Source of the DNA: an uncultured Alphaproteobacteria bacterium
GTDB lineage: Bacteria > Pseudomonadota > Alphaproteobacteria > Methylaequorales > Methylaequoraceae
Length of the DNA: 64,000 nt
Assembly: GCA_902526865.1 (NCBI GenBank)
Contig: CABZMK010000004.1
Span: 7,371 to 71,370 of the forward strand
Direction: 5' to 3'
The notes below the pieces were generated by a model, which was given only the letters and a program-made list of their open reading frames with translations, was not told the DNA's origin and did no database searches. The stretch's first letter is position 1; each line of letters starts with the position of its first letter. Positions 33,695 through 48,950 of this stretch are shown in pieces. Both the position numbers and the translations under genes were made by a program.

Positions 33695-33945
33695 TAAATA
33701 AAATTGTTTGTTTAAAAGCAGCTTAACTAATTTATATATCTTAATATAAATTTACAAAAAAATAATTTTTAATTTATTACAATTCGATTAACTCTCCTTA
33801 AAGATACAACCCACCACCATGCTTTTTAAGATGATTATTTCACCATTTATGGAGATATTCTTGGAGATTTTGAAAAAAACATTGATACAAGACATTGATA
33901 CAAACAATGAAAGTCAATGGCATTAAGGGTTTGAGACCCAATGCA

Positions 33946-34005
33946 ACTGATCCAAAATCCGTTGAACTTCGGTTCATGTCCGTTCGAGTCGGACTCGGGG
34001 TACCA
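33946..34005 (+). repeat. Partial tRNA-Leu 3'-end copy (att-like)
   Basis: 57/60 identical to 30397-30456 by hand count. Preceded by an 81-nt segment (33865-33945) shared with the copy at 37076. Confidence 0.85.
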
Positions 34006-34009
34006 TTAT

Positions 34010-35164: not shown

Positions 35165-35187
35165 CTGAGTATTTAATTTATATATAT

Positions 35188-35976
35188 ATGAGTATAGCTA
35201 AATATTATTGGTTTTTTAGTTTTTCTATAAAATTATTTTTAGTATTTACTATGATATATCTAGCCTTTCCATTTCCTATTAAAGCTCATCACAAAATAGA
35301 TAATCCAACAATAAAATTTTCTGAATCCCCAGAAATAAGTAATTTTTTTTTTGAATGGAGGGGGCATATAAATCTTGATAGAAAAAAAGAAAATCATGAA
35401 ACGTATCACCAAGTATTAGAATTCGTTAAAGGATGGAATAAACGCTATGAAACAGATTTTGAATTACATATTGCTGATTTAAAAAATAGTTCATTAGCAA
35501 TCCCAAAAGTAAAATTTCAGAACAAATATAATTTTATTAATAACGAAAATTTTCTATTCTCAACTTTTTTTTCATTTAATTTAGCCACTGAGAAAAATAG
35601 TTCAGATCAAATAGAATATAAATTTCTATTTCAAAATAAATTTAAGTATTTTGTTTTTAATAATGGTTTTGGTTTTTATAAAAATATCAATGGAAAAAAT
35701 TCAAAAAACACGGTTCTAAAATATTTTCCATTAATTTATTTTAAAAAACCTATTATATCCGATATTCATTTGGCAATTGCAGGAAGTAGTGATTTTGGGA
35801 AAATTTCAAAGTTTAGTACTTACACTAATCAAAAACATCAATACGGACTTGGGATTAAAAAAACTTTTCAAAAAAATACCCCACGCGAAATTGATTTAAC
35901 AATTGCATATTTAAAGGGTCTGAATTCAAAGTCTTTTGATCAATCACTTATTTGGTATGTAAATAAATCATTTTGA
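35188..35976 (+). CDS. Hypothetical exported protein (possible outer-membrane protein; C-terminal Phe)
   Basis: ORF 35146-35976. The likely ATG is at 35188 (MSIAKYYWFF...). N-terminal hydrophobic signal-like segment, alternating beta-like sequence, terminal ...YVNKSF. Confidence 0.35.
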   Translation: MSIAKYYWFFSFSIKLFLVFTMIYLAFPFPIKAHHKIDNPTIKFSESPEISNFFFEWRGHINLDRKKENHETYHQVLEFVKGWNKRYETDFELHIADLKNSSLAIPKVKFQNKYNFINNENFLFSTFFSFNLATEKNSSDQIEYKFLFQNKFKYFVFNNGFGFYKNINGKNSKNTVLKYFPLIYFKKPIISDIHLAIAGSSDFGKISKFSTYTNQKHQYGLGIKKTFQKNTPREIDLTIAYLKGLNSKSFDQSLIWYVNKSF

Positions 35977-36378
35977 TTATTATGAGCTCAATTATTAATA
36001 ACAGAGTTTGTGTCCATCTAAGTAGGATATTTAGACTGCATATCAATCAATTTCGTACTAGTGGTATTAGAGATTGATTAAAACAATATAAACGCTTTAA
36101 AGTTTTTTCTTTCCTACAATTCATCCTAGCAAAATGCCTACTTCTTTAATATTTAAAAAAGTAATTCATGAACATAAACTTTATAAATCCTTAATAATTA
36201 TTTTTGGTGTATTCGCAGTTAAAAGTTGATAAGAAAATTTTGAATAAATTGAAGTAGGGAACGACTGAGGGTATTTGGACTGCTGCAACACAATACCACA
36301 AACAATTTTAAATTTTTAATTTCACAATAATATTTTCAAACTTCTTGTAAAATATTTTTTTAAAGTAATACTTATATA

Positions 36379-36885
36379 ATGAACTTTATCTTTCTAATTA
36401 TCATTCTGTTGTTTTCTTTTAATTTAAATGCATCATGCAAGTTTAAAAATTCAACTTCAAATGATGAAGTTAAATACACTATTCAGAAATCTATAAATGT
36501 TGATGACATTGAAGGTCATGTGATAAGAATTTTCAAAACAGAAACCAATCATAAAAAATCAAAAAAAAATTGTGAAGGTCTTAAGATAGTTAAAACAGAT
36601 TTTTATGGTATTAGTGATTACATTAACAAAAATGGAAGAGTAACCGGCTATTCAATTGGGATTTACGATGATGGTAGTAAAATTTTCTCTCGAGTTGATG
36701 GTGTTGCTCAAACTCCAGAGGACGTTAGTAAAAATGGCCTTGTTAATACTACAATTACAATAACGGGAGGAACTGGGATCTACAAAGGAGTAATTGGTTA
36801 TGGTAAAGGACAAGTAGAATTTAACCCCGAAACAGGCTTCTCAGCTGGAAATACAGAAACATTTTACACAATTTCAGCAAAATAA
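36379..36885 (+). CDS. Hypothetical secreted protein
   Basis: 168-aa ORF. Signal peptide MNFIFLIIILLFSFNLNA-SC. Gly/Thr-rich beta-like C-terminal half. Confidence 0.45.
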   Translation: MNFIFLIIILLFSFNLNASCKFKNSTSNDEVKYTIQKSINVDDIEGHVIRIFKTETNHKKSKKNCEGLKIVKTDFYGISDYINKNGRVTGYSIGIYDDGSKIFSRVDGVAQTPEDVSKNGLVNTTITITGGTGIYKGVIGYGKGQVEFNPETGFSAGNTETFYTISAK

Positions 36886-36887
36886 AA

Positions 36888-36963
36888 TGGCATGGCTGAG
36901 AGGATTTGAACTCCAGACATCCGGGACTGCAAACTAGCGTTCTAACCAACTGAGCTTCAGTCA
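36888..36963 (-). pseudogene. tRNA-like relic (D-loop, T-loop and CCA recognisable; stems mostly broken; GCA at the anticodon position)
   Basis: The minus strand reads ttgactg-aa-gctcagttggttagaac-g-ctagtttgcagtcccgg-atgtc-tggagttcaaatcctct-cagccat-g-cca. The acceptor pairs at 5/7 positions. The D, anticodon and T stems carry mismatches. Confidence 0.3.
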
Positions 36964-37075
36964 ACATTTTGAATAGATGCTTCTACATTCATAGAGAAAT
37001 TTTTACAGATTTTGAAAAAAAAACATTTATACAAACAATGAAAGTCAATGTAATCAGGGGCTTTAGACCCAACAC

Positions 37076-37135
37076 AACTGATTGAAAATCCCTTGAACTT
37101 CGGTTCATGTCCGTTCGAGTCGGACTAGAGGTACC
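37076..37135 (+). repeat. Partial tRNA-Leu 3'-end copy (att-like)
   Basis: 56/60 identical to 30397-30456 by hand count. Preceded by a 69-nt segment (37007-37075) homologous to 33865-33945. Confidence 0.85.
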
Positions 37136-37159
37136 ATTTTTTTAAAAACAGAGATTATT

Positions 37160-38089
37160 TTAATTTATAAATGATTGTAGATTTTTTTTGGCATATAACA
37201 TTTTAGGATAATAATGTTGTTCAAGATCTTCTAAAAGCCAATCAACATTAATTGAATCCATTTTAGTAAATAATAAGTTAGGAATCCCATGTAACTTTAA
37301 GTCAGATTTATGAGGAATGTATTTGGGTAAACCGCCACTTGGATCTAAAATAAACATTTCTAAGCCATATTTTCTCATAAGAACTCTCATAGTATTTAAA
37401 GAATCATTTAATCTAGCCAAACAATGAGGAGCATATTCAACAATCCAATATCGAACAATATCCTTTTTAAGAAGAGATTGGGATCCACGAAGAATTTGTC
37501 CCTCAAAACCTTCAACATCAATTTTCACAACTTTTATTTTTTTATCGTTAATTTCTTCATCTAATGTGGACGTTTTTAAACTCTCCCAATCTAAATTTTC
37601 ATTATCAGGTTTCTTAACACCATAAGATGTTCCTGAGTCATGCGAAGAAAAGTGAAAAAAAACTTCATCACCACTGTTCTCTCCAAGAATAATTTTTTTT
37701 AGTTTTATATTTCTAAAATTATTAAGTTTTATATTTGCTCTCAATTCATCAGAGCTCTCTTTTCCAGGTTCAAAAGCAATGACTTTACCCTCAGATCCTA
37801 CTAGTGAACTCATTAATAATGAATGCATTCCAATATTGGCGCCAATGTCAACACATGTGTCTTTTGGACTTATAACACGTGTTAAGAAAAGACCTATATC
37901 GTTTTCATAAAAATGTCCGTTCTTTATCCACGAATAAATAGTTTTATGATTATTTTTTTCTGGATAAAAATTATATTTAAACTCTTTTTGATGCAATTTT
38001 TTCATCAAAATTTTTCTTTCGTTCAAATAATAGCTATTGTAACTAAATCTGAGAAGTTTTTGTTCTTTAAACATAATTAAAATTAGCAA
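37160..38089 (-). CDS. FkbM-family methyltransferase
   Basis: 309-aa ORF. CVDIGANIGMHSLLMS and KIDVEGFEGQILRG motifs. It is the only gene in its repeat-bounded module. Confidence 0.75.
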   Translation of the reverse strand: MLILIMFKEQKLLRFSYNSYYLNERKILMKKLHQKEFKYNFYPEKNNHKTIYSWIKNGHFYENDIGLFLTRVISPKDTCVDIGANIGMHSLLMSSLVGSEGKVIAFEPGKESSDELRANIKLNNFRNIKLKKIILGENSGDEVFFHFSSHDSGTSYGVKKPDNENLDWESLKTSTLDEEINDKKIKVVKIDVEGFEGQILRGSQSLLKKDIVRYWIVEYAPHCLARLNDSLNTMRVLMRKYGLEMFILDPSGGLPKYIPHKSDLKLHGIPNLLFTKMDSINVDWLLEDLEQHYYPKMLYAKKNLQSFIN

Positions 38090-38252
38090 TATTTATACCA
38101 ATGGAATTAAAATAAAAAGTTCAATCACATTTATAAATTTTTGAGGAAATGTAAGGGATAGAGCAATTATTTTTCCAATTATAAAGTGACAATTCTAAAA
38201 AGTGTAATAAAAAAATTTATGTATTTAAATCAATAACTTACAATCAAATGGA

Positions 38253-38313
38253 ACTAATTCAAAATCCATTGAACTTCAGTTCATGTACGTTCGAGTCGGA
38301 CTAGGGGGTACTA
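38253..38313 (+). repeat. Partial tRNA-Leu 3'-end copy (att-like), decayed
   Basis: actaattcaaaatccattgaacttcagttcatgtacgttcgagtcggactagggggtacta. About 53-54/60 identical plus one 1-nt insertion, by hand count. Confidence 0.75.
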
Positions 38314-38626
38314 TTAAATTTATGTCTGTGTCATTAAAACAAAAGTATCAATGTCAAACACCCAGCAATACATATTGAAATAAGATCTATTCCACCTTCT
38401 TGTTCTCTTTTTATTTCTTGACCTTTAAGGTTGAAAGCAAAAATCTGCAACAGCGCAAAATATTAAATAAATTGCACCATAAATTATGATACACCAAAAT
38501 CAATGCATATAGACTAAAAAAGTATAATAAGTTTCATTAAACTACTAAAATAATTGTTGTTTTTTATTTTAGTGTTGGCAAAAATTCGTAATAAAAGTGT
38601 GTTAATCTGTGTTAAAAATATAAGCT

Positions 38627-39544
38627 ATGGTGTTACCTAATTTTTTAATTGCAGGTGCTGCTGCCTCTGGAACAAGTTTTTTAAGTTCAATATTAATGCA
38701 GCATACAGATATATATCTACCGAAAGAAATGCGTCCAGAGCCTCATTTTTTCTATTACTCAGATAAATATGCTCACGGTGTTGAGTGGTATAAAAAAAAA
38801 TGGTTTTCTGATGTAAAAAAACAATCAGCTGTTGGTGAAAGATCCTCATCTTACCTCTATCACAAAGAAAGCGCAAAAAGAATTAGCCAAAACTTACCAA
38901 ATATTAGACTAATATTTGTTCTAAGAAATCCGATAGAAAGGACTTGGGCTAACTATAGATATACCGTTTTAAGTGGATTAGAGGATTTATCATTCACAGA
39001 CGCATTAGAAACAGAATCTCATAGAGTTAAAAATGCATCTGGAATATGGAAAGAAGTACAACCGCACGATTATACAGGAAGAGGCTTATATGGAGAACAA
39101 CTTGAATTTTATCTTAATTTCTTTTCATGGAGTCAAATATTAATTATTAATTCAGAGAAATTGTCGTCCGAAACTCAAATTCAGCTTGATCGTATTACTA
39201 ATTTTTTAGGTGTCAAAAATTTAGAACAGTTTGAATACCCACCTGCTTTTACATCCCTAAGTATTTTAAATAAAGATGTTCAAATAAAATGCAGAAAATT
39301 ATTAGGTGCCAACAAATTTAATTGTATTGTGGAGGCGGTTCGGCGAAAAGAATTCAATGTTGATGACTTCTCTGAAGACAATAAAGAAAAAAAAGTTATC
39401 AAAAGTCTTTCGAACAATATGGTAAATGAAAAGTACAAAATACCTGAAAAAAATTATGAATGGTTAGCAGATTTTTTTAGAAAAGATCAAGATAAATTTT
39501 TTAATATTTCCAAAAACTACATAGATTTTAAAAGATGGTTTTAG
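38627..39544 (+). CDS. Sulfotransferase-fold protein (candidate transferase using a 3'-phospho-nucleotide donor)
   Basis: 305-aa ORF. 5'-PSB-like loop AGAAASGTSFLSSIL and 3'-PB-like motif LRNPIERTWANYRY. The stop overlaps the start of the CysC-like kinase by 10 nt. Confidence 0.75.
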   Translation: MVLPNFLIAGAAASGTSFLSSILMQHTDIYLPKEMRPEPHFFYYSDKYAHGVEWYKKKWFSDVKKQSAVGERSSSYLYHKESAKRISQNLPNIRLIFVLRNPIERTWANYRYTVLSGLEDLSFTDALETESHRVKNASGIWKEVQPHDYTGRGLYGEQLEFYLNFFSWSQILIINSEKLSSETQIQLDRITNFLGVKNLEQFEYPPAFTSLSILNKDVQIKCRKLLGANKFNCIVEAVRRKEFNVDDFSEDNKEKKVIKSLSNNMVNEKYKIPEKNYEWLADFFRKDQDKFFNISKNYIDFKRWF

Positions 39545-40035
39545 TTTGGATTACAGGTTTGTCAGGTTCCGGGAAAACAACTTTAGCAAAGGCATTAAAA
39601 AAAAATATGTCAGGCGAAGGATATAATCCTATTTTGATGGATGGAGATGTATTGCGTGAAATTCTAGACTTTACCGAAAAAGGATACGCTCTTCAAGATA
39701 GAAAACAACTTGCTTTTTGCTATGCAAGGTTAGCTAATCTTTTTGTTAAACAAGGGTTTTTAGTAATAGTTGCAACAGTTTCAATGTTTGAGGATGTGAG
39801 AAAATGGAATCGAGAAAATAATCACAAATACTGCGAAGTTTATTTAAAGGTTGATAGGCAAACACGCGTATCAAGAGACCCTAAAAAACTATACGAATCA
39901 AATACTGATCTGGTTGAATTTGAAAATGGCTTTGATGAGCCGAGAAAACCAGACATAATTTTTGATCATTTTTACGATTTGGATCAAATGGTTAACAAGC
40001 TTAAAATATATTTAATGGAGAAATTTAATGCATAG
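39535..40035 (+). CDS. CysC-family P-loop kinase (APS kinase homologue; candidate cytidine diphosphoramidate kinase, Cj1415-like)
   Basis: 166-aa ORF. VWITGLSGSGKTTLAKAL P-loop and the size typical of the CysC family. The function is inferred from operon context. Confidence 0.8.
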   Translation: MVLVWITGLSGSGKTTLAKALKKNMSGEGYNPILMDGDVLREILDFTEKGYALQDRKQLAFCYARLANLFVKQGFLVIVATVSMFEDVRKWNRENNHKYCEVYLKVDRQTRVSRDPKKLYESNTDLVEFENGFDEPRKPDIIFDHFYDLDQMVNKLKIYLMEKFNA

Positions 40036-40819
40036 CACAGAAATAAAAACGGTTGAGCATGGTAATTTTTCAGGACTAGCAAAGGACTATTCAACGTACA
40101 GGCCCACATATTCTAAGTCAGTTCTTAAGTCGTTGATAGCACTACTAAAAAACTCTGTTCATGAGTGTGATTTTGCGGATATAGGTGCAGGAACCGGTAT
40201 TTGGACTAGGCTGGTCGAATCATATAATCCTAAGTCTATAATAGCAATAGAGCCAAATGAAGATATGCGGAGTATAGGAATACGTGATTCATCTAAAACA
40301 AAAATTAAATGGCAGAAGGGTTCTGGAGAAAAGACTGGCTTGGAAAGTAAATCAATGGATATGGTCTCAATGGCAAGCTCCTTCCATTGGGTTGATTTTG
40401 AAAAGGGATGCAAAGAATTTCATAGGGTTCTTAAAAAGAATGGGCGTTTTGTAGCTTTATGGAACCCAAGACAGTTGCAAGAAAACCCTTTTCTTGAAAA
40501 GTTAGAGGGATATATAAATCTTTTAAAACCTGGCTATAAACGTATATCTTCTGGTAATAGCGGGAGAGCTGAAAATTTAACTGAAAAATTTTTTAACAGT
40601 GGTTTGTTTACAGATGTTGTTTATATAGAGGGAAGGCATGTTGTGTCGATTTCTCCTGAAAAATATATCGGTGCTTGGCACTCGGTCAATGATGTACAAC
40701 ATCAACTTGGTCCAGATAAGTTTTTGGATTTCATTAATCATCTCAAACAAGAATTAAAAGGGATAGATACAGTGAATGTAACGTATCAAACACGAGCTTG
40801 GTCAGCATTAAAAAAATAG
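40028..40819 (+). CDS. Class I SAM-dependent methyltransferase (Cj1419/Cj1420-like position)
   Basis: 263-aa ORF. FADIGAGTGIWTRLV motif I and MVSMASSFHW. Overlaps the upstream gene by 8 nt. Confidence 0.8.
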   Translation: MHSTEIKTVEHGNFSGLAKDYSTYRPTYSKSVLKSLIALLKNSVHECDFADIGAGTGIWTRLVESYNPKSIIAIEPNEDMRSIGIRDSSKTKIKWQKGSGEKTGLESKSMDMVSMASSFHWVDFEKGCKEFHRVLKKNGRFVALWNPRQLQENPFLEKLEGYINLLKPGYKRISSGNSGRAENLTEKFFNSGLFTDVVYIEGRHVVSISPEKYIGAWHSVNDVQHQLGPDKFLDFINHLKQELKGIDTVNVTYQTRAWSALKK

Positions 40820-40828
40820 GAATATGGT

Positions 40829-43138
40829 ATGTCAAAAGCATCTATTTTAATAAAACTAAAAAAAAACATAAGAAAAGCTAAAATCTTAGATCTTTTCTCA
40901 TTTCAATGCCATGAATTTGTTAAAAACTCTGAAGATGTAATTAGAGAAGTTTCTCGGCATCTAGGTGCATCAAAACATTTTATTGTACGTAGCAGTTCAT
41001 CAAAAGAAGATCAAATAAATTCTTCTTCGGCAGGTAAATATAAATCCTTTTTGAACGTTAAAAAAGACAATCTAAAGGATGCTATCAAAAAAGTGATTGA
41101 ATCATATGGGAAAGAATGTAAGCCAGAAGATGAAGTTTTAATCCAACCTATGTTAAAAAATGTAAATATGAGTGGGGTTTTGTTTACACACTGTCCTAAA
41201 TCTGCAGCTCCCTATTACATTATTAATTATAATGATTCAGGTGATACAACTGCTGTCACTTCTGGTAAAGGAGATTGTAAAACGCAGTATATTTATCACA
41301 ATTTGAAAAAACATGATTCTCCAAAATTTCGAAAACTTATTTCTTTATCGAAAGAATTGACTGAAAAACTTAACAATCCTTCTCTTGATATTGAGTTTGC
41401 TTTTAATAATAATGAAGAATTGTTTTTACTACAGGTTAGACCAATTGTATATCAAAAACAGTTAGCTCGTGGGCTAAATTTAGATGATTCAATAAAAGGA
41501 ATTAAGAAAAAATTTCATTCTCTATCTTTAAAACATCCTTATTTGTACGGTGATAAAACAATTCTAGGAATTATGCCGGATTGGAATCCCGCAGAAATAA
41601 TTGGAGTTAAGCCAAAGCCTCTTGCATTGAGTCTTTATAAAGAACTAATCACCGACGGTATATGGGCCTATCAAAGAGATAATTATGGATATCGGAACTT
41701 AAGAAGTTTCCCACTTCTTATTGATTTGGGTGGTCTGCCTTACATAGACACGCGTGTGAGTTTTAACTCTTTTTTACCCAAAGGTCTTTCAGAAGAATTA
41801 GCAAAAAAACTTACTAACTATTATTTAGAGCAGTTAGAAAAGAAACCTCAATTACACGATAAAATTGAGTTCGATATTACTTTTTCTTGCTATACATTTG
41901 ATCTTAAAGAAAAGTTAAAAACACTCAAGAAGTATCTTTTTACAGACTCTGAAATCATTACAATTCATGAGGCATTAAAAAATTTAACTGATAATATAAT
42001 CCATGAAAGAAAAGGACTGTGGCTAAAAGATATTCAAAAAATTTCTGAATTAGAAAATCGTCACAAAACAATATTTTTTAATCCTGATTTTGATGATTTA
42101 ACTAAGATCTATTGGTTGATTGAGGATTGTAAAAGATATGGAACGCTTCCATTTGCTGGTCTCGCAAGAGCAGGCTTTATAGCCGTTCAACTTCTTGATT
42201 CAATAATGAAGATAGGAGTTATTTCCGAGGAAGATAAGCTTCTCTTTATGAATAGTCTTGATTCAATTAGTACAAATTTAGAAAAGGATTTTAAAACTCT
42301 AGATAAAGAGAATTTTATCGGAAAATATGGGCACTTGCGTCCTGGCACCTACAACATATTATCAAAACGATATGATGAAACCCCAGATATTTACTTTAAT
42401 TGGAGTGATTCTAAACTAAGCAACCCAATTAAAAAAAATAAATTCAAGTTAAGCTTACAACAGATGCAGATAATCGAAGAACTTCTCAAAAAACATAATT
42501 TAAGCTATGATGTCGTGGGCCTATTCTCTTTTATAAAGTCCGCTATTGAAGGTAGAGAATATTCTAAATTTACATTTACCAAGACCCTAAGTGATATTTT
42601 ATCACTGCTTAAAAAATATGGAGCAATAAATAATATCCCTGTTGAAGATCTTGCATTTTTAGATATTAAAGATCTAATAAAAAATTTCTCCTCTTCATCT
42701 AATACTTTAGAAGATTTAGAATTAAGTATTGAGCGAGGCAAGAAAAAATATGCCCTTTCTGAGAAAATTATCCTTCCTCCGATCATTGCAAACATTGATC
42801 AAATAGAAAATTTTGGACTATTTGAAGAGCACCCTAATTTTATAACGAAAAAAAAAATAACGTCCCATGTAATTAAATATATCCAAGGAGAAACTAATTT
42901 AAAAAATGCAATAGTTTTTATTGATAGTGCAGACCCAGGTTATGACTGGCTTTTTACTAGGGGCATAGCTGGATTTGTAACAGCATATGGAGGTGTTAAT
43001 TCCCATATGAGTATCAGGGCTGCAGAATTGGATTTTCCTGCAATTATTGGAGCTGGTGAAGTTTTGTATGACAAGTGGAGTAGGGCTAAGAGAATTCACA
43101 TTGATTGCGAAAATCAACATGTTGAGGTTATCGCTTGA
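40829..43138 (+). CDS. PEP-utilising/PPDK-like three-domain enzyme; candidate L-glutamine kinase (Cj1418-like)
   Basis: 769-aa ORF. N-terminal ATP-grasp-like region (FIVRSSSSKEDQINSSSAGKYKSF). C-terminal swivel domain GGVNSHMSIRAAELDFPAIIGAG, with the phospho-carrier His codon at 43004-43006. Confidence 0.7.
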   Translation: MSKASILIKLKKNIRKAKILDLFSFQCHEFVKNSEDVIREVSRHLGASKHFIVRSSSSKEDQINSSSAGKYKSFLNVKKDNLKDAIKKVIESYGKECKPEDEVLIQPMLKNVNMSGVLFTHCPKSAAPYYIINYNDSGDTTAVTSGKGDCKTQYIYHNLKKHDSPKFRKLISLSKELTEKLNNPSLDIEFAFNNNEELFLLQVRPIVYQKQLARGLNLDDSIKGIKKKFHSLSLKHPYLYGDKTILGIMPDWNPAEIIGVKPKPLALSLYKELITDGIWAYQRDNYGYRNLRSFPLLIDLGGLPYIDTRVSFNSFLPKGLSEELAKKLTNYYLEQLEKKPQLHDKIEFDITFSCYTFDLKEKLKTLKKYLFTDSEIITIHEALKNLTDNIIHERKGLWLKDIQKISELENRHKTIFFNPDFDDLTKIYWLIEDCKRYGTLPFAGLARAGFIAVQLLDSIMKIGVISEEDKLLFMNSLDSISTNLEKDFKTLDKENFIGKYGHLRPGTYNILSKRYDETPDIYFNWSDSKLSNPIKKNKFKLSLQQMQIIEELLKKHNLSYDVVGLFSFIKSAIEGREYSKFTFTKTLSDILSLLKKYGAINNIPVEDLAFLDIKDLIKNFSSSSNTLEDLELSIERGKKKYALSEKIILPPIIANIDQIENFGLFEEHPNFITKKKITSHVIKYIQGETNLKNAIVFIDSADPGYDWLFTRGIAGFVTAYGGVNSHMSIRAAELDFPAIIGAGEVLYDKWSRAKRIHIDCENQHVEVIA

Positions 43139-43734
43139 TGAAGTATGTTGGTCTTACAATGCGAATTGAAGATTTATCTAAAAATGATGAAAGAAGGGAT
43201 TGTATTGATCAACGTTGGTACAATTTTTTAAATGCATGTAATTTGCGGCCTATCTTAATTCCAAATTTAGAATATTTTGTATCAGAAAAATATTTAAATA
43301 AGTTATCAGGCATTATTTTAACTGGAGGTAATTCATTATCACATTTAGGAGGTAACGCTCCAGAGCGTGAAGTTGTTGAAAAAAAACTTATTAAGTATGC
43401 AATAGGAAAGAAACTACCTCTGATGGGAGTTTGTCGTGGAATGCAAGTTTTACAAAACTACTATAAAGTTCCTATCGAAAAGGTTGATGGTCATGTAGGA
43501 ACACGACACAACTTGCTTTTTAAGAACGAAAAGATAAATGTAAATAGTTTTCATAAGTACGGGACAAAGGGAACTACTGATTGCTTAGAAATTCTTGCTA
43601 ATTGTTCAGATGGGGTAGTGGAAGCAGTAAAACATAAAGAGCTCCCATTTATAGGTATTATGTGGCATCCAGAAAGGGAGAATTTATTTTCTAATTTTGA
43701 TATTCAATTAATTGGGGAACACTTTCTGTCATGA
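43138..43734 (+). CDS. Class I glutamine amidotransferase-fold / peptidase C26 hydrolase; candidate gamma-glutamyl-CDP-amidate hydrolase (Cj1417-like)
   Basis: ORF 43135-43734, ATG at 43138 (TGATG overlap). Nucleophile elbow GVCRGMQVL and WHPE His motif. Confidence 0.75.
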   Translation: MKYVGLTMRIEDLSKNDERRDCIDQRWYNFLNACNLRPILIPNLEYFVSEKYLNKLSGIILTGGNSLSHLGGNAPEREVVEKKLIKYAIGKKLPLMGVCRGMQVLQNYYKVPIEKVDGHVGTRHNLLFKNEKINVNSFHKYGTKGTTDCLEILANCSDGVVEAVKHKELPFIGIMWHPERENLFSNFDIQLIGEHFLS

Positions 43735-43955
43735 AAGAAAATTTGCAAAATATATTTAATCAAAGTGACTCAGATACCACTGTCTACTTTAAAGGTATTA
43801 AATTTACTTTGGAAGATGATGTCTCAACTCTTACTAAAGTAGATTGTGTATCATACGTCTTATTAACAAGCATATTAAAAAGAACTAAAAACATCTCCAT
43901 ACTATCAGAAAAGAATATTATGAACCTAGAGATTTTTTGGAAGGGTACCCCTTAA
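43731..43955 (+). CDS. Hypothetical 74-aa protein, translationally coupled on both sides
   Basis: ATGA overlap upstream and TAATG overlap downstream. No motif recognised. Confidence 0.35.
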   Translation: MKENLQNIFNQSDSDTTVYFKGIKFTLEDDVSTLTKVDCVSYVLLTSILKRTKNISILSEKNIMNLEIFWKGTP

Positions 43956-44647
43956 TGAGAGCAATTATTTTAGCTGCAGGTCGTGGTAGTCGAATGGGTA
44001 ACTTAACAGATGAAAAACCAAAGTGTCTTTTGGAAGTCTATGGAAAACCTCTTATCGAGCATCAAATTGAGGCTCTTACAACAGGGGGTATAGAAGAGAT
44101 TGCTATTGTTACTGGATACAAAAGTGAACTTTTGTATTGTTATGGGAACCATCATTTTCATAATGAAGAATGGGCCGAGACAAACATGGTTCACTCTTTA
44201 CTATGTGCTAAAGAATGGTTTAACATGGATGATTGTATTGTAAGCTATGCTGATATTTATTACACTTTTGAAGTTATCAAAGACTTGGTGAATTGCCCTG
44301 ATGATATCGCGATTTCTTATGACCCAAATTGGCTAGAATTATGGTCCAAAAGGTTTGAGAACCCTTTAGATGATGCAGAAACCTTTAAAATCAATGAAGG
44401 TGGATACTTGCTCGAAATTGGACAAAAACCAAAAACTATAAAAGAAATTCAAGGGCAATATATGGGTTTATTAAAGTTTAGTTCGTCATTTTTCTTAAAG
44501 GTCCAGAAAAGTAAATTTACAAGAAAAATAAGTATGACCGATTTTTTATCAACTATTATAAAAAATGGAACAACTATTAAGTGTATCAAAAATAATACCA
44601 TTTGGAATGAATTTGACAGCGCTTCAGACTTTCAGATAGGTGTATGA
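43955..44647 (+). CDS. Nucleotidyltransferase (LicC/MobA-like fold); candidate CTP:phosphoglutamine cytidylyltransferase (Cj1416-like)
   Basis: ORF 43937-44647. The likely ATG is at 43955, giving MRAIILAAGRGSRMG...KCLLEV, the canonical NTP-transferase N-terminus. Confidence 0.75.
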   Translation: MRAIILAAGRGSRMGNLTDEKPKCLLEVYGKPLIEHQIEALTTGGIEEIAIVTGYKSELLYCYGNHHFHNEEWAETNMVHSLLCAKEWFNMDDCIVSYADIYYTFEVIKDLVNCPDDIAISYDPNWLELWSKRFENPLDDAETFKINEGGYLLEIGQKPKTIKEIQGQYMGLLKFSSSFFLKVQKSKFTRKISMTDFLSTIIKNGTTIKCIKNNTIWNEFDSASDFQIGV

Positions 44648-45021
44648 ATATTCTTATATATTAGGGAAAACATTTAAAATGTTAGTAAATTTAATTAAAT
44701 CAACAATCTAAAAACTTAAGTGAAATCTTGAACTCATTTACTTTCGTACCAAGACAGAAAAAAATGAATTTAAATCTTTTAATGGACACTGTTTTTAATG
44801 TGTTATAAAAATGAAATTTATATACCTAACAGAATGAAGAATATTAAACTAGGGTCGAATGAGTATAGTTTTGTCAACCAAGTTTTTGAAATGGGATCAA
44901 TACTTACCTAAGTAATTTCAAGCAGTGCCGGCTCTACAATGAACAAAAAGTATTAATGCAGGGTGTGTTTTTGGATATAAGTTGTTGGTACTGAAAGCTT
45001 TTGGTAAAGTTCACTCAAGAT

Positions 45022-46164
45022 ATGATTAAAAATAAAAAAATTTGCTCTAGATGTATTTATGATGAGCATATTCCAAATATTTCTTTTTCAGATGATGGGA
45101 TTTGTAATTATTGTGATCAAATTGATTTTTTAAAAAAGGAATTTGGTACTGGTAAAAAAAAAGGACACAAACTATTAAAAAATTTAATCAATAAAATTAA
45201 AAAAGAAGGTCAATCAAAAAAATATGATTGTGTTATTGGTGTAAGTGGTGGGACAGATTCATCATATTTACTGATGAAAGCCAAGGAATGGGGGTTAAAG
45301 CCACTTGCAGTTCATTATGACAATACATGGAATACAGCAACGGCTAGTATGAATATAGCTAAAGTTACAAAGTATCTTGATATCGACTTATTTACTTATG
45401 TAATTGATAATAAAGAAGTAAATGATATGAAACTTTCTTTTTTACGTTCTGGTGTTCCAGAATTTGATGCTGATACTGACATAGCATTCGTTCAAATATT
45501 AAGACAGGTAGCTGCTAATAAAAAAATAAAATATATTTTAGAAGGACATTCTTTTATAACTGAAGGAATCTCACCTGTGGGAAGCAACTATTTTGACGGA
45601 GGCTACGTAGCTGATATTCATAAGAAATTTGGTAAGCTAAAAATGAAATCTTATCCAAATATGACCTTTTTTCAATTTATGAAATGGATACTTCTTTATA
45701 GACAAAAATTTATTCGTCCTTTGTGGTATATTGATTATTCTAAAGAAGAAGCACAAAAAATATTAATTGAAAAGACGGGGTGGCAATACTATGATGGTCA
45801 CCATTTAGAGAATAGAGCATCATGGTTCACACACACACTTTGGCTTCCTAGATATGGAACTGATTTTAGATATTTATCTTTAGCAGCAAAGGTAAGAAAT
45901 AATAAAATTAAACGTCTTACGGCTCTTAAAGAAATGAAAAAACCAATTATAGAGAGCACAATGTTAATTAATTATGTTAAAAAAAGATTGGATTTGAATC
46001 ATAACGAGTATAAAAGTATCATGAATGGGACAAAGAGGACTTGGAGAGGATTCAAGACATATAAAAAAAGATTCGAGATTCTCAAACCAATTTTTTATAT
46101 TCTTATGAAACTAAATCTAGTACCAGTAACTTTTTATCAAAAATATTGTAATAAAATAGACTAG
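45022..46164 (+). CDS. N-acetyl-sugar amidotransferase (PP-loop ATP pyrophosphatase, WbuX/PseA-like)
   Basis: ORF 45001-46164. The likely ATG is at 45022. N-terminal CSRC...CNYC zinc ribbon and the GVSGGTDSSYL PP-loop. Confidence 0.8.
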   Translation: MIKNKKICSRCIYDEHIPNISFSDDGICNYCDQIDFLKKEFGTGKKKGHKLLKNLINKIKKEGQSKKYDCVIGVSGGTDSSYLLMKAKEWGLKPLAVHYDNTWNTATASMNIAKVTKYLDIDLFTYVIDNKEVNDMKLSFLRSGVPEFDADTDIAFVQILRQVAANKKIKYILEGHSFITEGISPVGSNYFDGGYVADIHKKFGKLKMKSYPNMTFFQFMKWILLYRQKFIRPLWYIDYSKEEAQKILIEKTGWQYYDGHHLENRASWFTHTLWLPRYGTDFRYLSLAAKVRNNKIKRLTALKEMKKPIIESTMLINYVKKRLDLNHNEYKSIMNGTKRTWRGFKTYKKRFEILKPIFYILMKLNLVPVTFYQKYCNKID

Positions 46165-46165
46165 A

Positions 46166-46774
46166 ATGATTACTATTTTAAATTATGGTTTAGGAAATCT
46201 TGGATCGATACAAAATATGCTTCATTTTTTAGAAGTGGACTCTAAAATAGCGTCTGACATCCGGAATATTAAAAAAGCATCAAAAATTATTTTGCCTGGT
46301 GTGGGTGCTTTTGACACAGCAATAAAAAAATTAAACAGTGTAAAAGGTTTATTTGATATTTTAAATGAAAAGGCTTTGATCGAAAAAGTTCCTATTTTGG
46401 GTATATGTCTTGGCATGCAAATTTTAACTAAAGAAAGTGAAGAAGGTGTTTTAAAAGGTTTAAATTGGATACCAGCTAAAGTTCATAAGTTTCCGCATAA
46501 TAAAAAAATCAAAGTTCCTCATATGGGCTGGAACTCTGTAAACCAAATAAAAAAAAATAGTCTAGGTAAAAACTTAGATGAAAATAGTAAATTTTATTTT
46601 GTTCATTCTTATTATGTAAAAGCTGAAAATAGAGATAATGTAATATTTACCACTAACCACATTGTTAACTTTGATTCTGCCATACAATTTGAAAATATTT
46701 ATGGTGTTCAGTTTCATCCTGAAAAAAGTCATAAATTCGGTATAAATATTTTTAAAAATTTTTTGAAGATTTAA
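46166..46774 (+). CDS. Imidazole glycerol phosphate synthase HisH-like glutaminase subunit (glycan-cluster paralogue, WbuY-like)
   Basis: 202-aa ORF. LPGVGAF, GICLGMQIL catalytic Cys and FHPEKS. Confidence 0.85.
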   Translation: MITILNYGLGNLGSIQNMLHFLEVDSKIASDIRNIKKASKIILPGVGAFDTAIKKLNSVKGLFDILNEKALIEKVPILGICLGMQILTKESEEGVLKGLNWIPAKVHKFPHNKKIKVPHMGWNSVNQIKKNSLGKNLDENSKFYFVHSYYVKAENRDNVIFTTNHIVNFDSAIQFENIYGVQFHPEKSHKFGINIFKNFLKI

Positions 46775-46775
46775 T

Positions 46776-47522
46776 TTGTTACGACTTAGAGTAATACCGA
46801 TTTTATTATTAAAGGATGATCGTTTAGTAAAAACGGTCAACTTTAAAAAACCAAATTATATTGGAGATCCTTGTAATACAATTAGAATATTTAATGAACT
46901 ACAAGTTGATGAATTATTTTTGTTTGACATATTTGCTTCGAAAAATAAAAGCGATCCAAATTACAAAATTATCTCAAATATCGTTGATGAATGTTTTATG
47001 CCTTTAAGTTATGGCGGAGGAATAAATTCCTTAGACCAAGCAAAAAAAATCTTTGATTTTGGGGTCGAAAAAATATCCTTAAACTCAGCCATCTTAAATA
47101 ATCCAAAACTTATTTATGATTTGGCAAAAATTTATGGTAGTCAAGCTATTATCTGTTCCATTGATTATAAAAAAAACATATTTGGAGCTTATACTGTATG
47201 GACGAATAGAGGAACTATAGACACAAAAAAATGTCCAATTGAATGGGCAAAAGAATTAGAGAAAAGAGGAGCAGGAGAAATATGTTTGACTTCTATTGAT
47301 AGAGAAGGATCTTGGTTAGGTCCTGATTTGGAAATATCAAAAAAAGTATCAGACTTATTGTCAATTCCTCTAGTTACACACGGAGGTGTTGGTGAAATAA
47401 AACACATAAAAATACTTCAAAAAAATACAAATATTTCGGGCGTAGGCGTTGGAAGTATGTTTGTATATCAAAAAAAAGGTAATGGTGTTTTGATAAATTA
47501 TCCATTTGAAGAATTAGTGTAA
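46776..47522 (+). CDS. HisF-like cyclase subunit (glycan-cluster paralogue, WbuZ-like)
   Basis: 248-aa ORF (TTG start). RVIPILLLKDDRLVKTVNF, GGGI and GAGEI..TSIDREG motifs. Starts 1 nt after the hisH-like stop. Confidence 0.85.
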   Translation: MLRLRVIPILLLKDDRLVKTVNFKKPNYIGDPCNTIRIFNELQVDELFLFDIFASKNKSDPNYKIISNIVDECFMPLSYGGGINSLDQAKKIFDFGVEKISLNSAILNNPKLIYDLAKIYGSQAIICSIDYKKNIFGAYTVWTNRGTIDTKKCPIEWAKELEKRGAGEICLTSIDREGSWLGPDLEISKKVSDLLSIPLVTHGGVGEIKHIKILQKNTNISGVGVGSMFVYQKKGNGVLINYPFEELV

Positions 47523-47559
47523 GCATAGGAAGCTTTCAAAATGAAAAAAATCAAAATAG

Positions 47560-47619
47560 ACGAATTCAAAATCCTTTGAACTTCGGTTCATATCCGTTTG
47601 GGTCGGACCAGGGATACCA
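47560..47619 (+). repeat. Partial tRNA-Leu 3'-end copy (att-like), decayed
   Basis: acgaattcaaaatcctttgaacttcggttcatatccgtttgggtcggaccagggatacca. 53/60 identical to 30397-30456 by hand count. Confidence 0.75.
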
Positions 47620-47648
47620 TTGTAAAAAAAAAATAATTATGTAATGTT

Positions 47649-48734: not shown

Positions 48735-48836
48735 GTTAAAAATTTTACATATAATTATTAAGATTCAAAGATAAATTATAATTATGAGTGAGGATTATAA
48801 ATTTTATAAGTATCTAATAGGAGAAACGGTGGATTA

Positions 48837-48895
48837 AATAATTCAAAATCGGTTGAACCTTTGTTCATATCGGTTTGAGGCTTACAAGTATCACT
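48837..48895 (+). repeat. Most decayed partial tRNA-Leu 3'-end copy
   Basis: aataattcaaaatcggttgaacctttgttcatatcggtttgaggcttacaagtatcac. 40/60 identical (ungapped hand count) over the 60 positions 48837-48896, one past the stated end. Same strand and intergenic like the others. Confidence 0.5.
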
Positions 48896-48950
48896 TCAAA
48901 AAATTTTTCTCTTTTGTAAATTATATTTTTTTAATAGATTTAAACTTGAA

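What the first reader, a model, noticed from the sequence alone, without database searches (positions are those of the whole stretch)
38627..44647. Campylobacter-type O-methyl-phosphoramidate (MeOPN) donor pathway inside a SAR11-like glycan island
Seen in sequence:
- Seven + strand ORFs form one translationally coupled operon. The junctions are a 10-nt overlap at 39535-39544, an 8-nt overlap at 40028-40035, a 9-nt gap at 40820-40828, TGATG at 43136-43140, ATGA at 43731-43734 and TAATG at 43953-43957.
- The recognisable products are a CysC-type P-loop kinase (GLSGSGKTT) and a class I SAM methyltransferase (DIGAGTGIW).
- There is also a 769-aa PEP-utilising/PPDK-like enzyme with the swivel-His motif GGVNSHMSIRAAE.
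- The remaining two are a C26/class I GATase-fold hydrolase (GVCRGMQVL, WHPE) and an NTP-transferase (MRAIILAAGRGSRMG).

Established knowledge:
- This is the enzyme set that the Raushel laboratory showed builds the MeOPN donor in C. jejuni.
- The four enzymes are L-glutamine kinase Cj1418, CTP:phosphoglutamine cytidylyltransferase Cj1416, gamma-glutamyl-CDP-amidate hydrolase Cj1417 and cytidine diphosphoramidate kinase Cj1415 (a CysC homologue). SAM methyltransferases Cj1419/Cj1420 act as well.
- From memory, the protein sizes are similar and the order MT-kinase-hydrolase-cytidylyltransferase matches Cj1419-Cj1418-Cj1417-Cj1416.

Inference:
- This organism decorates a surface glycan with a phosphoramidate (P-N) group.
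- To my knowledge this chemistry is characterised only in Campylobacter capsules, where it modulates phage and serum resistance.
- In an abundant oligotroph it would be a new cell-surface trait and a new N-P compound class in marine organic matter.
Basis: partly seen in the sequence, partly recalled or inferred. Interest (0 to 1): 0.9.

Follow-up and report, generated by a model that had tools for sequence, protein, structure and literature searches.

The report
Phosphoramidate-donor gene cassette in marine bacterium
A marine low-GC alphaproteobacterium carries a mobile gene cassette that most likely adds a (methyl)phosphoramidate (P-N) group to a surface sugar, a pathway proven only in Campylobacter but whose genes turn out to be widespread in bacteria.

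Summary
In detail: seven tightly coupled + strand ORFs at 38627-44647, with every junction and motif as described. The core interpretation holds at family level. The 769-aa protein passes the NCBIfam equivalog NF004508 (977 bits; relatives are named "glutamine kinase" by IMG). The hydrolase's best family is gamma-glutamyl-CDP-amidate hydrolase, but below its cut-off. A CysC-like kinase, a cytidylyltransferase-type enzyme and a SAM methyltransferase complete the set.

Three corrections:
1. The cassette is not rare. Relatives occur in at least 591 reference species and 1,564 50%-identity clusters, nearly always with the same partner genes, and the kinase is fused to the Gln kinase in 40 of 84 loci.
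2. "SAR11-like" is unverified.
3. Two ORFs were not interpreted. ORF1 is a sulfotransferase-fold protein whose whole family lacks the catalytic Lys and is usually found within these cassettes. I propose it is the phosphoramidate transferase, using the PAPS-like donor. The 74-aa ORF is the decaying stump of a CysQ-like phosphatase gene that is intact in relatives.

The cassette lies in a ~9.2-kb module bounded by tRNA-Leu 3' fragments, one of six such modules. Direct comparison with Cj1415-Cj1422 was not possible. Verdict: a real, probably functional, new variant of a known pathway, of moderate interest.

The parts
38253..38319 (+). Partial copy (3' ~65 nt) of tRNA-Leu(CAA); att-like left boundary of the ~9.2-kb module that carries the cassette
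   Evidence: Direct-repeat family D1. 33-mer match with 2 mismatches, 0 expected by chance. Alignment with the full tRNA at 30370-30456.
38627..39544 (+). 305-aa sulfotransferase-fold protein. The catalytic Lys of the 5'-phosphosulfate loop is replaced by Ala13. Proposed (inferred) phosphoramidate transferase using 3'-phospho-CDP-amidate.
   Evidence: Pfam Sulfotransfer_1/3. PDB 3rnl E=2e-22 and heparan sulfate 3-O-sulfotransferases. AlphaFold model pLDDT 91.7 with the same structures as best Foldseek matches. Family alignment: A13 nearly invariant; E38, H40 and R100 invariant. In all 7 cassette-linked contexts read, the gene is part of the cassette.
39535..40035 (+). 166-aa CysC-like P-loop kinase; predicted cytidine diphosphoramidate 3'-kinase (Cj1415-like)
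   Evidence: NF004041 136.9 bits (cut-off 127). Fails TIGR00455 (100.5 vs 138.7) and NF003013 (80.8 vs 163). A kinase of this type is present in 81 of 84 Gln-kinase loci, fused to the Gln kinase in 40.
40028..40819 (+). 263-aa class I SAM methyltransferase; predicted O-methylation of the phosphoramidate (Cj1419/Cj1420-like role)
   Evidence: Pfam Methyltransf_11/25. A homologous MT is present in 70 of 84 loci. dN/dS 0.11 vs L088.
40829..43138 (+). 769-aa L-glutamine kinase-type enzyme (PPDK_N ATP-grasp domain plus PEP-utilizer swivel domain, His726)
   Evidence: NF004508 977 bits (cut-off 501). Pfam PF01326 + PF00391. His726 invariant in 16 diverse relatives. IMG names relatives 'glutamine kinase'.
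43138..43734 (+). 198-aa class I GATase / C26 hydrolase; predicted gamma-glutamyl-CDP-amidate hydrolase (Cj1417-like). ATG at 43138; the mechanical ORF starts at TTG 43135.
   Evidence: NF045546 E=2.8e-40, 138.5 bits, below cut-off 250; next family E=2e-14. Cys99, His177 and Glu179 lie in motifs conserved at >=90% across 54 homologues.
43731..43955 (+). 74-aa ORF: remnant (first ~63-70 codons) of an Inositol_P/CysQ-like phosphatase gene. About 553 bp, including the WLIDPLDGT metal-binding motif, is deleted.
   Evidence: 52.6% identity to residues 1-76 of the 254-aa L001 protein, E=2e-21. blastn break between L088 15293 and 15847. dN 0.24 vs 0.034 between intact copies; dN/dS 0.36-0.55. No Pfam hit.
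43955..44647 (+). 230-aa NTP-transferase; predicted CTP:phosphoglutamine cytidylyltransferase (Cj1416-like)
   Evidence: Pfam NTP_transf_3 / NTP_transferase. Best PDB match is LicC, a CTP:phosphocholine cytidylyltransferase. A homologue is present in 82 of 84 loci, directly after the hydrolase.
45001..47522 (+). WbuX-like N-acetyl-sugar amidotransferase, HisH-like and AglZ/WbuZ-like genes (acetamidino sugar modification). They sit in the same tRNA-fragment-bounded module but belong to a separate pathway.
   Evidence: TIGR03573 205 bits, TIGR01855 227 bits, NF038364 329 bits, each above its cut-off.
47560..47626 (+). Partial copy of tRNA-Leu(CAA) 3' part; att-like right boundary of the module
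   Evidence: 33-mer with 3 mismatches.

Best explanation
The block is a horizontally mobile 'phosphoramidation' cassette. Every enzymatic step below is inferred from family membership and from the Campylobacter biochemistry as cited in PMC6429109, PMC3907429 and the Borg preprint. Nothing was assayed here.

Predicted steps:
1. The 769-aa enzyme phosphorylates the amide N of L-glutamine with ATP through a phospho-His726 intermediate.
2. The NTP-transferase joins phosphoglutamine to CTP, giving CDP-L-glutamine.
3. The Cys99/His177/Glu179 hydrolase releases glutamate, giving cytidine diphosphoramidate.
4. The CysC-like kinase phosphorylates the 3'-OH, giving 3'-phospho-CDP-amidate, a PAPS look-alike.
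5. The SAM methyltransferase supplies the O-methyl group.
6. My proposal: the sulfotransferase-fold protein encoded by the first gene transfers the (methyl)phosphoramidate to a sugar hydroxyl of the glycan made by the surrounding island, releasing cytidine 3',5'-bisphosphate.
7. In relatives, the CysQ-like phosphatase would recycle that by-product. In this window that gene is a deleted stump, so a housekeeping enzyme would have to do the job.

The cassette is present because a ~9.2-kb module integrated at a tRNA-Leu gene.
For: - Family identity of the four donor enzymes and the MT.
- Catalytic residues conserved.
- Co-occurrence in 84 loci from many phyla: NTP-transferase 82, hydrolase 77, MT 70, kinase 81 (40 as N-terminal fusions to the Gln kinase).
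- Gene order MT-GlnK-hydrolase-NTP matches cj1419-cj1418-cj1417-cj1416, whose order can be read from PMC3907429.
- The six intact genes are under purifying selection, dN/dS 0.11-0.21.

For the transferase proposal:
- Homology to L088 begins exactly at the sulfotransferase start codon and ends in the NTP-transferase gene, so the gene belongs to the unit.
- In the 8 contexts read for this family, 7 have the gene inside a Gln-kinase cassette (window, L001, L002, L085, L086, L087, L088/L089). One, cyanobacterial L084, has no cassette within 9 kb. Three further members lie on contigs of the same length as contigs carrying Gln-kinase hits; this hints at the same contig but was not checked.
- Two other divergent sulfotransferase-fold lineages also flank cassettes (17 more loci).
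- The family keeps the 3'-phosphate Arg100 and the acceptor-side Glu38/His40 of heparan sulfate 3-O-sulfotransferases, but has Ala in place of the catalytic 5'-phosphosulfate-loop Lys in 19 of 20 members.
- The model is a confident sulfotransferase fold.
- The CysQ-like gene sits inside the cassette in 12 loci.
- Glycan island context.
Against: - No direct comparison with Cj1415-Cj1422 was possible.
- The hydrolase is below the NF045546 cut-off (138.5 vs 250), and no specific model for Cj1416 was hit.
- No chemistry was measured, and the acceptor sugar is unknown.
- The transferase role of the sulfotransferase-fold protein rests on association and on one missing residue.
- One family member (L084) has no cassette within 9 kb.
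- Some cluster-5 sulfotransferase-like proteins keep an Arg in the loop.
- In Campylobacter the transferases are Cj1421/Cj1422, whose fold I could not check.
- The CysQ-like gene is deleted here, which could mean the system is being lost.
Confidence: 0.72

Rival explanations
1. Two unrelated modules lie side by side. The sulfotransferase, the APS-kinase-like protein and (in relatives) CysQ form an ordinary PAPS-dependent glycan sulfation set, and only the Gln-kinase, hydrolase and NTP-transferase make a nucleotide-activated amidate.
For: The Pfam names are Sulfotransfer_1, APS_kinase and Inositol_P. The sulfotransferase overlaps the kinase gene by 10 nt. The fold is that of PAP(S)-binding glycan sulfotransferases.
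Against: - The kinase follows the Gln kinase (81 of 84 loci, 40 of them physically fused), whether or not a sulfotransferase is present (20 of 84).
- It fails the canonical APS-kinase equivalogs.
- It scores higher against Gln-kinase-fused kinase domains (median 107 bits) than against any solved APS kinase (78.6 bits).
- The sulfotransferase family lacks the catalytic Lys.
- No ATP sulfurylase was found among the window ORFs that were scanned.
Confidence: 0.08
2. The donor pathway is as proposed, but the end product differs from Campylobacter MeOPN on a capsule. It could be an unmethylated phosphoramidate (as on Xanthomonas or Shewanella LPS). The target could be a protein glycan (such as flagellin) or a lipid. 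The sulfotransferase-fold protein may not be the transferase.
For: - Unmethylated phosphoramidate is known on other LPS (PMC3907429; PMC8042644).
- Pseudomonas cassettes sit next to flgK, DegT and formyltransferase genes.
- 14 of 84 loci lack the MT, and most loci lack any recognisable sulfotransferase, so other transferases must exist.
Against: This window has an intact, selected MT (dN/dS 0.11). No flagellar genes were seen in the window. The neighbours are polysaccharide genes.
Confidence: 0.12
3. The cassette in this genome is a decaying, non-functional acquisition.
For: One of its seven genes has lost ~553 bp, and the stump evolves about 7-fold faster at non-synonymous sites. The cassette sits in a mosaic of small integrated modules.
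Against: The six other genes are full length with all catalytic motifs and dN/dS 0.11-0.21. The CysQ-like gene is absent from 72 of 84 cassettes, so it is dispensable.
Confidence: 0.05
4. The 769-aa protein is a PEP synthase / pyruvate phosphate dikinase or an antibiotic (rifampin-type) phosphotransferase, and the cluster has nothing to do with phosphoramidate.
For: Many database records name relatives 'phosphoenolpyruvate synthase'. It shares the PPDK_N and PEP-utilizer domains.
Against: It scores 977 bits for NF004508, versus at most 69 bits for any PEP synthase model and 29 bits for the rifamycin phosphotransferase model. The only PDB sequence hit is marginal (E=9e-5). The constant partnership with the C26 hydrolase and cytidylyltransferase has no role in those functions.
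Confidence: 0.02

Closest known systems
Campylobacter jejuni MeOPN biosynthesis locus (cj1415-cj1418 donor enzymes, cj1419/cj1420 methyltransferases, cj1421/cj1422 transferases)
   Same: It has the same four donor-enzyme families: glutamine kinase type, C26 hydrolase, NTP-transferase and CysC-like kinase, plus a class I SAM methyltransferase. The internal order MT-kinase-hydrolase-cytidylyltransferase is the same. It is located in a surface-polysaccharide gene region.
   Different: - The CysC-like kinase is upstream instead of last.
- There is only one MT.
- The cassette starts with a Lys-less sulfotransferase-fold gene and, in relatives, contains a CysQ-like phosphatase gene. Neither is described for Campylobacter in the papers I could read.
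- No homopolymeric phase-variation tracts were noted.
- The host is a marine low-GC alphaproteobacterium.
- Homology to Cj1421/Cj1422 could not be tested.
PAPS-dependent sulfation system (ATP sulfurylase, APS kinase CysC, sulfotransferase, PAP phosphatase CysQ)
   Same: The logic is the same: a 3'-phosphorylated nucleotide donor made by a CysC-type kinase, a sulfotransferase-fold transferase, and a CysQ-type enzyme to remove the 3',5'-bisphosphate by-product.
   Different: The group carried is predicted to be phosphoramidate on CDP, not sulfate on AMP. The transferase lacks the catalytic Lys and the 3'-phosphate Ser of true sulfotransferases. The kinase fails the APS-kinase equivalogs.
Seven-gene cassette in Legionella spiritensis / L. 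taurinensis and uncultured relatives (L001, L002, L086-L089)
   Same: Same gene content and order: sulfotransferase-like, kinase, MT, Gln kinase, hydrolase, (CysQ-like), NTP-transferase. Amino-acid identity is 51-84%.
   Different: Those copies (except L086) keep an intact CysQ-like gene. In the contexts read (L001, L002, L086-L089) they are embedded after AsnB-like, or AsnB-like plus WbmS-like, genes in larger O-antigen-type clusters. Here the cassette stands alone between tRNA-Leu fragments. None of these copies has been studied experimentally, as far as the searchable literature shows.
Tandem integrated islets at tRNA genes in marine picoplankton genomic islands (for example Prochlorococcus islands; recalled from memory, not checked)
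   Same: Repeated partial 3' tRNA copies separate small cargo modules next to one intact tRNA.
   Different: No integrase was seen among the annotated window ORFs. The mechanism and timing of integration are unknown.

Membership tests
L-glutamine kinase (Cj1418 type, EC 2.7.3.13; NCBIfam NF004508/PRK05849) | Full-length match to the family profile above the curated cut-off, and clearly better than PEP synthase or rifampin phosphotransferase models | tested here: met
   977 bits vs cut-off 501, covering profile positions 13-788 of 789. The next best family scores 69 bits. That NF004508 was built around Cj1418 is from memory; IMG names relatives 'glutamine kinase'.
L-glutamine kinase (Cj1418 type, EC 2.7.3.13; NCBIfam NF004508/PRK05849) | N-terminal ATP-grasp (PPDK_N) domain plus C-terminal swivel domain with the phospho-accepting His | tested here: met
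   PF01326 and PF00391. His726 in GGVNSHMSIRAAE is invariant in 16 diverse relatives.
L-glutamine kinase (Cj1418 type, EC 2.7.3.13; NCBIfam NF004508/PRK05849) | Reciprocal best hit with Cj1418, and ATP + L-Gln -> phosphoglutamine + AMP + Pi activity | not testable with these tools
   No Campylobacter sequence could be retrieved. No assay is possible.
gamma-glutamyl-CDP-amidate hydrolase (Cj1417 type; NCBIfam NF045546) | Profile score above the curated equivalog cut-off | tested here: not met
   138.5 bits vs cut-off 250. It is nevertheless the best family, at E=2.8e-40 against 2.1e-14 for the next one.
gamma-glutamyl-CDP-amidate hydrolase (Cj1417 type; NCBIfam NF045546) | Class I GATase Cys-His-Glu triad, and position directly after the Gln kinase gene | tested here: met
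   Cys99, His177 and Glu179 lie in motifs conserved at >=90% in 54 homologues. Adjacency holds in 77 of 84 loci.
CTP:phosphoglutamine cytidylyltransferase (Cj1416 type) | NTP-transferase fold with the GxGxR signature, linked to the Gln kinase and hydrolase | tested here: met
   PF12804/PF00483 and LAAGRGSRMG at residues 6-15. Present in 82 of 84 loci.
CTP:phosphoglutamine cytidylyltransferase (Cj1416 type) | Specific similarity to Cj1416, and CTP/phosphoglutamine specificity | not testable with these tools
   No dedicated model matched. The best NCBIfam hit is a generic sugar-1-P nucleotidylyltransferase, and the best PDB hit is LicC.
Cytidine diphosphoramidate kinase (Cj1415 type; NCBIfam NF004041/PRK05541 subfamily) | Passes the subfamily model but not the canonical APS-kinase equivalogs | tested here: met
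   NF004041 136.9 vs 127. TIGR00455 100.5 vs 138.7. NF003013 80.8 vs 163. The link between NF004041 and Cj1415 is from memory.
Cytidine diphosphoramidate kinase (Cj1415 type; NCBIfam NF004041/PRK05541 subfamily) | Functional linkage to the Gln kinase (gene fusion or co-occurrence) | tested here: met
   81 of 84 loci: 41 separate, 40 fused N-terminally to the Gln kinase.
PAPS-dependent sulfotransferase (Pfam PF00685/PF13469) | Sulfotransferase fold | tested here: met
   Pfam E=2e-11. PDB 3rnl E=2e-22. Model pLDDT 91.7, Foldseek TM up to 0.74 to 3-OST/NDST structures.
PAPS-dependent sulfotransferase (Pfam PF00685/PF13469) | Catalytic Lys in the 5'-phosphosulfate-binding loop (PKxGT) and Ser in the 3'-phosphate motif. 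Their role is established knowledge recalled from memory. | tested here: not met
   Ala13 aligns with the Lys of 3rnl (GAAKCGTS) and of 3-OST-3 (GVKKGGT). Ala108 aligns with the Ser. There is no Lys at that position in any of the 20 family members. Arg100 is retained.
CysQ / Inositol_P phosphatase (PF00459), for the 74-aa ORF | Complete domain with the metal-binding WxxDPxDGT motif | tested here: not met
   Only residues 1 to ~70 remain. The motif starts at residue ~76 of the intact L001/L088 proteins and lies in the deleted ~553 bp. No Pfam hit.
SAR11 / Pelagibacterales (host assignment) | Closest relatives of conserved flanking genes are Pelagibacterales | tested here: inconclusive
   The named relatives of GltD (the few that carry names, about 71-82% identity) are 'Alphaproteobacteria bacterium' or 'Rickettsiales bacterium' marine MAGs, none Pelagibacter. 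The flank encodes crotonyl-CoA carboxylase/reductase. A 74%-identity relative's 1.46-Mb contig encodes a TonB-dependent receptor near gltD. No rRNA gene is in the window.

The most novel reading that the evidence does not exclude
The Lys-less sulfotransferase-fold family at the head of the cassette is a previously unrecognised class of phosphoramidate (P-N) transferases that use 3'-phospho-CDP-amidate exactly as sulfotransferases use PAPS. The cassette-encoded CysQ-like enzyme would clear cytidine 3',5'-bisphosphate. Together with the Gln-kinase route, this would be a complete 'phosphoramidation' system parallel to sulfation. It would be spread by small tRNA-targeted modules and present in hundreds of bacterial species, including marine plankton, implying that glycan-bound P-N compounds are a common and overlooked component of cell surfaces and of marine organic N/P.
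Probability: 0.4. Interest if true: 0.75.

Novelty: new variant of a known kind. Interest (0 to 1): 0.5.

Why it matters
If the cassette works as predicted, O-methyl-phosphoramidate decoration is not a Campylobacter curiosity. A 2022 expert review still calls the glutamine kinase 'C. jejuni-specific' (PMC9561416). It would instead be a widespread surface modification that environmental bacteria exchange as a compact module.

In Campylobacter the group controls phage recognition and serum resistance (PMC3907429, PMC3417653). In plankton it would most plausibly be a phage-evasion trait within a strain-variable glycan island.

The cassette also offers a concrete candidate for the transferase step: a sulfotransferase fold without its catalytic Lys. 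It offers a cultured test organism with the same seven genes (Legionella spiritensis). Both make the hypothesis directly testable.

For this particular window the finding is one instance among thousands of relatives, so it matters as an example rather than as a unique discovery.

Tried and rejected
- **Campylobacter sequences for the reciprocal test.** All routes failed. The PDB holds none detectable by sequence. The Raushel author manuscripts are not held. The reference-genome scan returned only the best 80 of at least 591 hits, none from Campylobacter. A guess based on AT-rich composition and a His at position 737 (P0398) turned out to be a Tara Oceans protein.
- **Taxonomy.** The GltD search and cluster look-ups gave only generic names. 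The window's own protein is not on record in the contig index. A related 1.46-Mb contig gave no name. Rfam found no rRNA.
- **Neighbour clustering.** Raw single-linkage clustering of neighbour ORFs was useless, because spurious ORFs in high-GC genomes merged everything. It was replaced by a greedy non-overlapping gene set.
- **Other recurrent neighbours.** Clusters c6, c8 and c16 could have been cryptic sulfotransferases, but hhalign gave no support (probabilities at most about 4%).
- **Phage carriage of the cassette.** Only three weak viral hits were found, none with partner genes.
- **Promoter/terminator scan.** It gave nothing above chance.
- **Rejected reading.** PEP synthase or rifampin phosphotransferase for the 769-aa protein, on the profile scores.

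Full report
**1. Observation.** The seven + strand ORFs are real and placed as described. Reading the junctions confirms the 10-nt and 8-nt overlaps, the 9-nt gap, and the TGATG, ATGA and TAATG stop/start overlaps. All quoted motifs are present. Consensus scans found no terminator inside the block and no excess of promoters, so the operon reading rests on the coupling of the reading frames.

**2. What the proteins are.**
- ORF1 (305 aa) is a sulfotransferase-family protein.
- ORF2 (166 aa) is APS-kinase-like. It passes only the NCBIfam subfamily NF004041 (136.9 vs 127) and fails the canonical APS-kinase equivalogs (TIGR00455 100.5 vs 138.7; NF003013 80.8 vs 163).
- ORF3 is a class I SAM methyltransferase.
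- ORF4 (769 aa) matches the equivalog NF004508 end to end at 977 bits (cut-off 501). The best PEP synthase model gives 69 bits and the rifamycin phosphotransferase model 29. It carries PPDK_N and PEP-utilizer domains. His726 is invariant among 16 diverse relatives.
- ORF5 is a C26/class I GATase. Its best family is gamma-glutamyl-CDP-amidate hydrolase (E=2.8e-40, next family 2e-14), but its score of 138.5 bits is below that model's cut-off of 250.
- ORF7 is an NTP-transferase whose closest solved relative is LicC, a CTP:phosphocholine cytidylyltransferase.
- No Campylobacter MeOPN enzyme is reachable in the PDB by sequence.

**3. Relatives and distribution.**
- The large protein search returned 120 full-length relatives of ORF4 at 46-100% identity (119 of them at or below 89%). 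They come from Legionella spiritensis and L. taurinensis, Clostridium, Nitrospina, Holosporales, Coxiellaceae, Daviesbacteria and many metagenomes. IMG names many of them 'glutamine kinase', and many are fused to an APS-kinase domain.
- An exhaustive search of 1.84 billion cluster representatives found 1,564 50%-identity clusters at E<=1e-30.
- Some AT-rich members are from Tara Oceans samples.
- In 84 loci scanned with my own HMMs, the NTP-transferase is present in 82, the hydrolase in 77 and the MT in 70. The CysC-like kinase is present in 81: 41 as a separate gene and 40 fused N-terminally to the Gln kinase. The three exceptions (L046, L048, L067) have little or no sequence upstream of the Gln-kinase gene.
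- This constant partnership, and especially the fusion, ties the kinase to the Gln-kinase pathway rather than to sulfate activation.

**4. The two uninterpreted ORFs.**

*The 74-aa ORF.* Close relatives (L001, L088/L089, 75-84% amino-acid identity for most genes), L. spiritensis (L002) and a sludge contig (L087) carry a 252-273-aa Inositol_P/CysQ-family gene between the hydrolase and the NTP-transferase. The window's 74-aa ORF is 53% identical to the first 76 residues of that protein (E=2e-21). DNA alignment shows that ~553 bp (L088 15294-15846), including the WLIDPLDGT motif, are missing here. The stump has dN 0.24 against 0.034 for the same codons between intact copies, whereas the six intact genes have dN/dS 0.11-0.21. 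It is a decaying remnant. The gene is dispensable, being absent from 72 of 84 cassettes.

*ORF1.*
- Homology to L088 starts exactly at ORF1's start codon and ends in the NTP-transferase gene, so ORF1 is part of the unit.
- Its family is a coherent ~305-aa group.
- Of four distant members sampled, three lie inside Gln-kinase cassettes (Ekhidna L085, a gammaproteobacterial MAG L086, sludge L087). One, a cyanobacterium (L084), has no cassette within 9 kb.
- Two other divergent sulfotransferase-fold lineages also flank cassettes: a Nitrospina type, and a ~440-aa type in 15 loci.
- Alignment with solved sulfotransferases shows that the loop Lys (GAAKCGTS in 3rnl, GVKKGGT in 3-OST-3) is Ala13 here, and is never Lys in 20 family members. 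The 3'-phosphate-motif Ser is Ala108. Arg100 and the Glu38-Pro-His40 motif of heparan sulfate 3-O-sulfotransferases are invariant.
- A confident model (pLDDT 91.7) matches glycan sulfotransferases.

**5. Mechanism.** The established Campylobacter route, as summarised in PMC6429109, PMC3907429 and the Borg preprint, runs as follows: Gln kinase, then cytidylyltransferase, then hydrolase (giving CDP-amidate), then 3'-phosphorylation by the CysC homologue. The product resembles PAPS.

I infer that this cassette makes the same donor. I further infer three roles:
- The MT adds the methyl group.
- The Lys-less sulfotransferase-fold protein transfers the phosphoramidate to a sugar hydroxyl.
- The CysQ-like enzyme, where present, removes cytidine 3',5'-bisphosphate.

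Only the family assignments, conservation and associations are shown here. Every catalytic step is inferred. No searchable paper links sulfotransferase folds to phosphoramidate transfer.

**6. Context.**
- The region from ~10 to 48 kb is low in GC (about 26% at 10-31 kb, against 34-35% in the flanks; the cassette is 32%).
- It encodes ManC, Gmd, a GDP-fucose-synthase-like epimerase, a GT2, an MBOAT, a carbamoyltransferase, an AsnB-like amidotransferase, several methyltransferases and WbuX/HisH/WbuZ acetamidino genes. So 'glycan island' is right.
- One full tRNA-Leu(CAA) at 30370-30456 is followed by partial 3' copies at 31717, 33946, 37077, 38253 and 47560, with weaker ones at 31515 and 48837. 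Six 33-mer matches were found where none is expected by chance.
- The cassette plus WbuXYZ lies exactly between the copies at 38253-38319 and 47560-47626. The island is therefore a tandem array of small modules integrated at tRNA-Leu, and the cassette arrived as cargo of one of them.

**7. Host.** The flanks encode ETF, acyl-CoA dehydrogenase, crotonyl-CoA carboxylase/reductase, a methylmalonyl-CoA-mutase-type enzyme and GltBD. The few named GltD relatives (about 71-82% identity) are marine 'Alphaproteobacteria/Rickettsiales bacterium' MAGs, and none is named Pelagibacter. 'SAR11-like' cannot be confirmed. 'Streamlined marine alphaproteobacterium' is as far as the evidence goes. The 90%-identity cluster nearest to GltD (96% identical) has 290 members, against 8 for the Gln kinase's own cluster. 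This is a rough hint that the cassette is strain-variable.

**8. Comparison and novelty.**
- The donor pathway is that of Campylobacter. Membership of the Gln-kinase and CysC-like families is met at profile level. Membership of the hydrolase equivalog is not met at its cut-off. Specificity for Cj1416 is untestable here.
- Phosphoramidate on glycans is also known from Xanthomonas and Shewanella LPS.
- The open literature mentions 'glutamine kinase' only in Campylobacter work and one Borg preprint, and a 2022 review calls it C. jejuni-specific. No paper links it to marine bacterioplankton.
- This window is therefore one member of a very large, under-described group. The sulfotransferase-fold and CysQ-like additions make it a variant of the known kind.
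- Interest is moderate.

Noticed in passing
window 30370-48903: One full tRNA-Leu(CAA) at 30370-30456 is followed by partial 3' copies at 31717-31783, 33946-34012, 37077-37143, 38253-38319 and 47560-47626, with weak copies at 31515 and 48837. They delimit six small modules: a methyltransferase; a glutaminase-cNMP protein; an MFS transporter plus two unknowns; an FkbM methyltransferase; the cassette plus WbuXYZ; and a DAO oxidoreductase. This looks like serial integration at one tRNA gene. No integrase was seen.
   Followed up: partly
window 43731-43955: The 74-aa ORF is the stump of a CysQ/Inositol_P-family gene that is intact (252-254 aa) in L001, L002 and L088 (273 aa in L087). About 553 bp is deleted, and the stump evolves under relaxed constraint.
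   Followed up: yes
loci L005-L080 (for example L005, L008, L013): In 40 of 84 loci the CysC-like kinase domain is fused to the N-terminus of the Gln kinase (proteins of ~950-1080 aa). This Rosetta-stone link is not mentioned in the papers I could read.
   Followed up: yes
L033, L038, L041 (Pseudomonas): The Gln-kinase cassette lies next to flgK, a DegT aminotransferase and a formyltransferase. This suggests that in Pseudomonas the phosphoramidate may decorate a flagellin glycan rather than a polysaccharide.
   Followed up: no
L090 (IMG/VR giant-virus MAG GVMAG-M-3300009496-9), 8001-10148: A full-length Gln-kinase-like gene (34% identity) sits on a giant-virus MAG contig, with none of the partner genes detected nearby.
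   Followed up: partly
window 40028-40819 vs L001 3866-4621: The window's methyltransferase is 63% identical to the Legionella one and 84% to L088's, but only 38% to that of the otherwise very close L001. So two methyltransferase paralogue types are swapped within the same cassette backbone.
   Followed up: no
window 45001-47522: WbuX-like amidotransferase, HisH-like and AglZ/WbuZ-like genes (acetamidino sugar formation) share the tRNA-fragment-bounded module with the cassette.
   Followed up: partly
window 2131-7167: The left flank encodes an acyl-CoA dehydrogenase, crotonyl-CoA carboxylase/reductase (TIGR01751, 550 bits) and a methylmalonyl-CoA-mutase-type enzyme. This is an ethylmalonyl-CoA-pathway-like set which, from memory, is not typical of SAR11.
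   Followed up: no
window 8707-9267: A 186-aa ORF gives a partial hit to the HNH region of RNA-guided endonuclease IscB (43.7 bits, far below the cut-off of 175), at the left edge of the low-GC island.
   Followed up: no
L002, L084, L086, L087, L088: The sulfotransferase-like gene is repeatedly preceded by the same sugar module: a 4,6-dehydratase-type epimerase, a DegT aminotransferase and an AsnB-like amidotransferase, often with WbmS-like or formyltransferase genes. This hints at the acceptor sugar (an amino or amidated sugar). That module is absent next to the window's copy.
   Followed up: no
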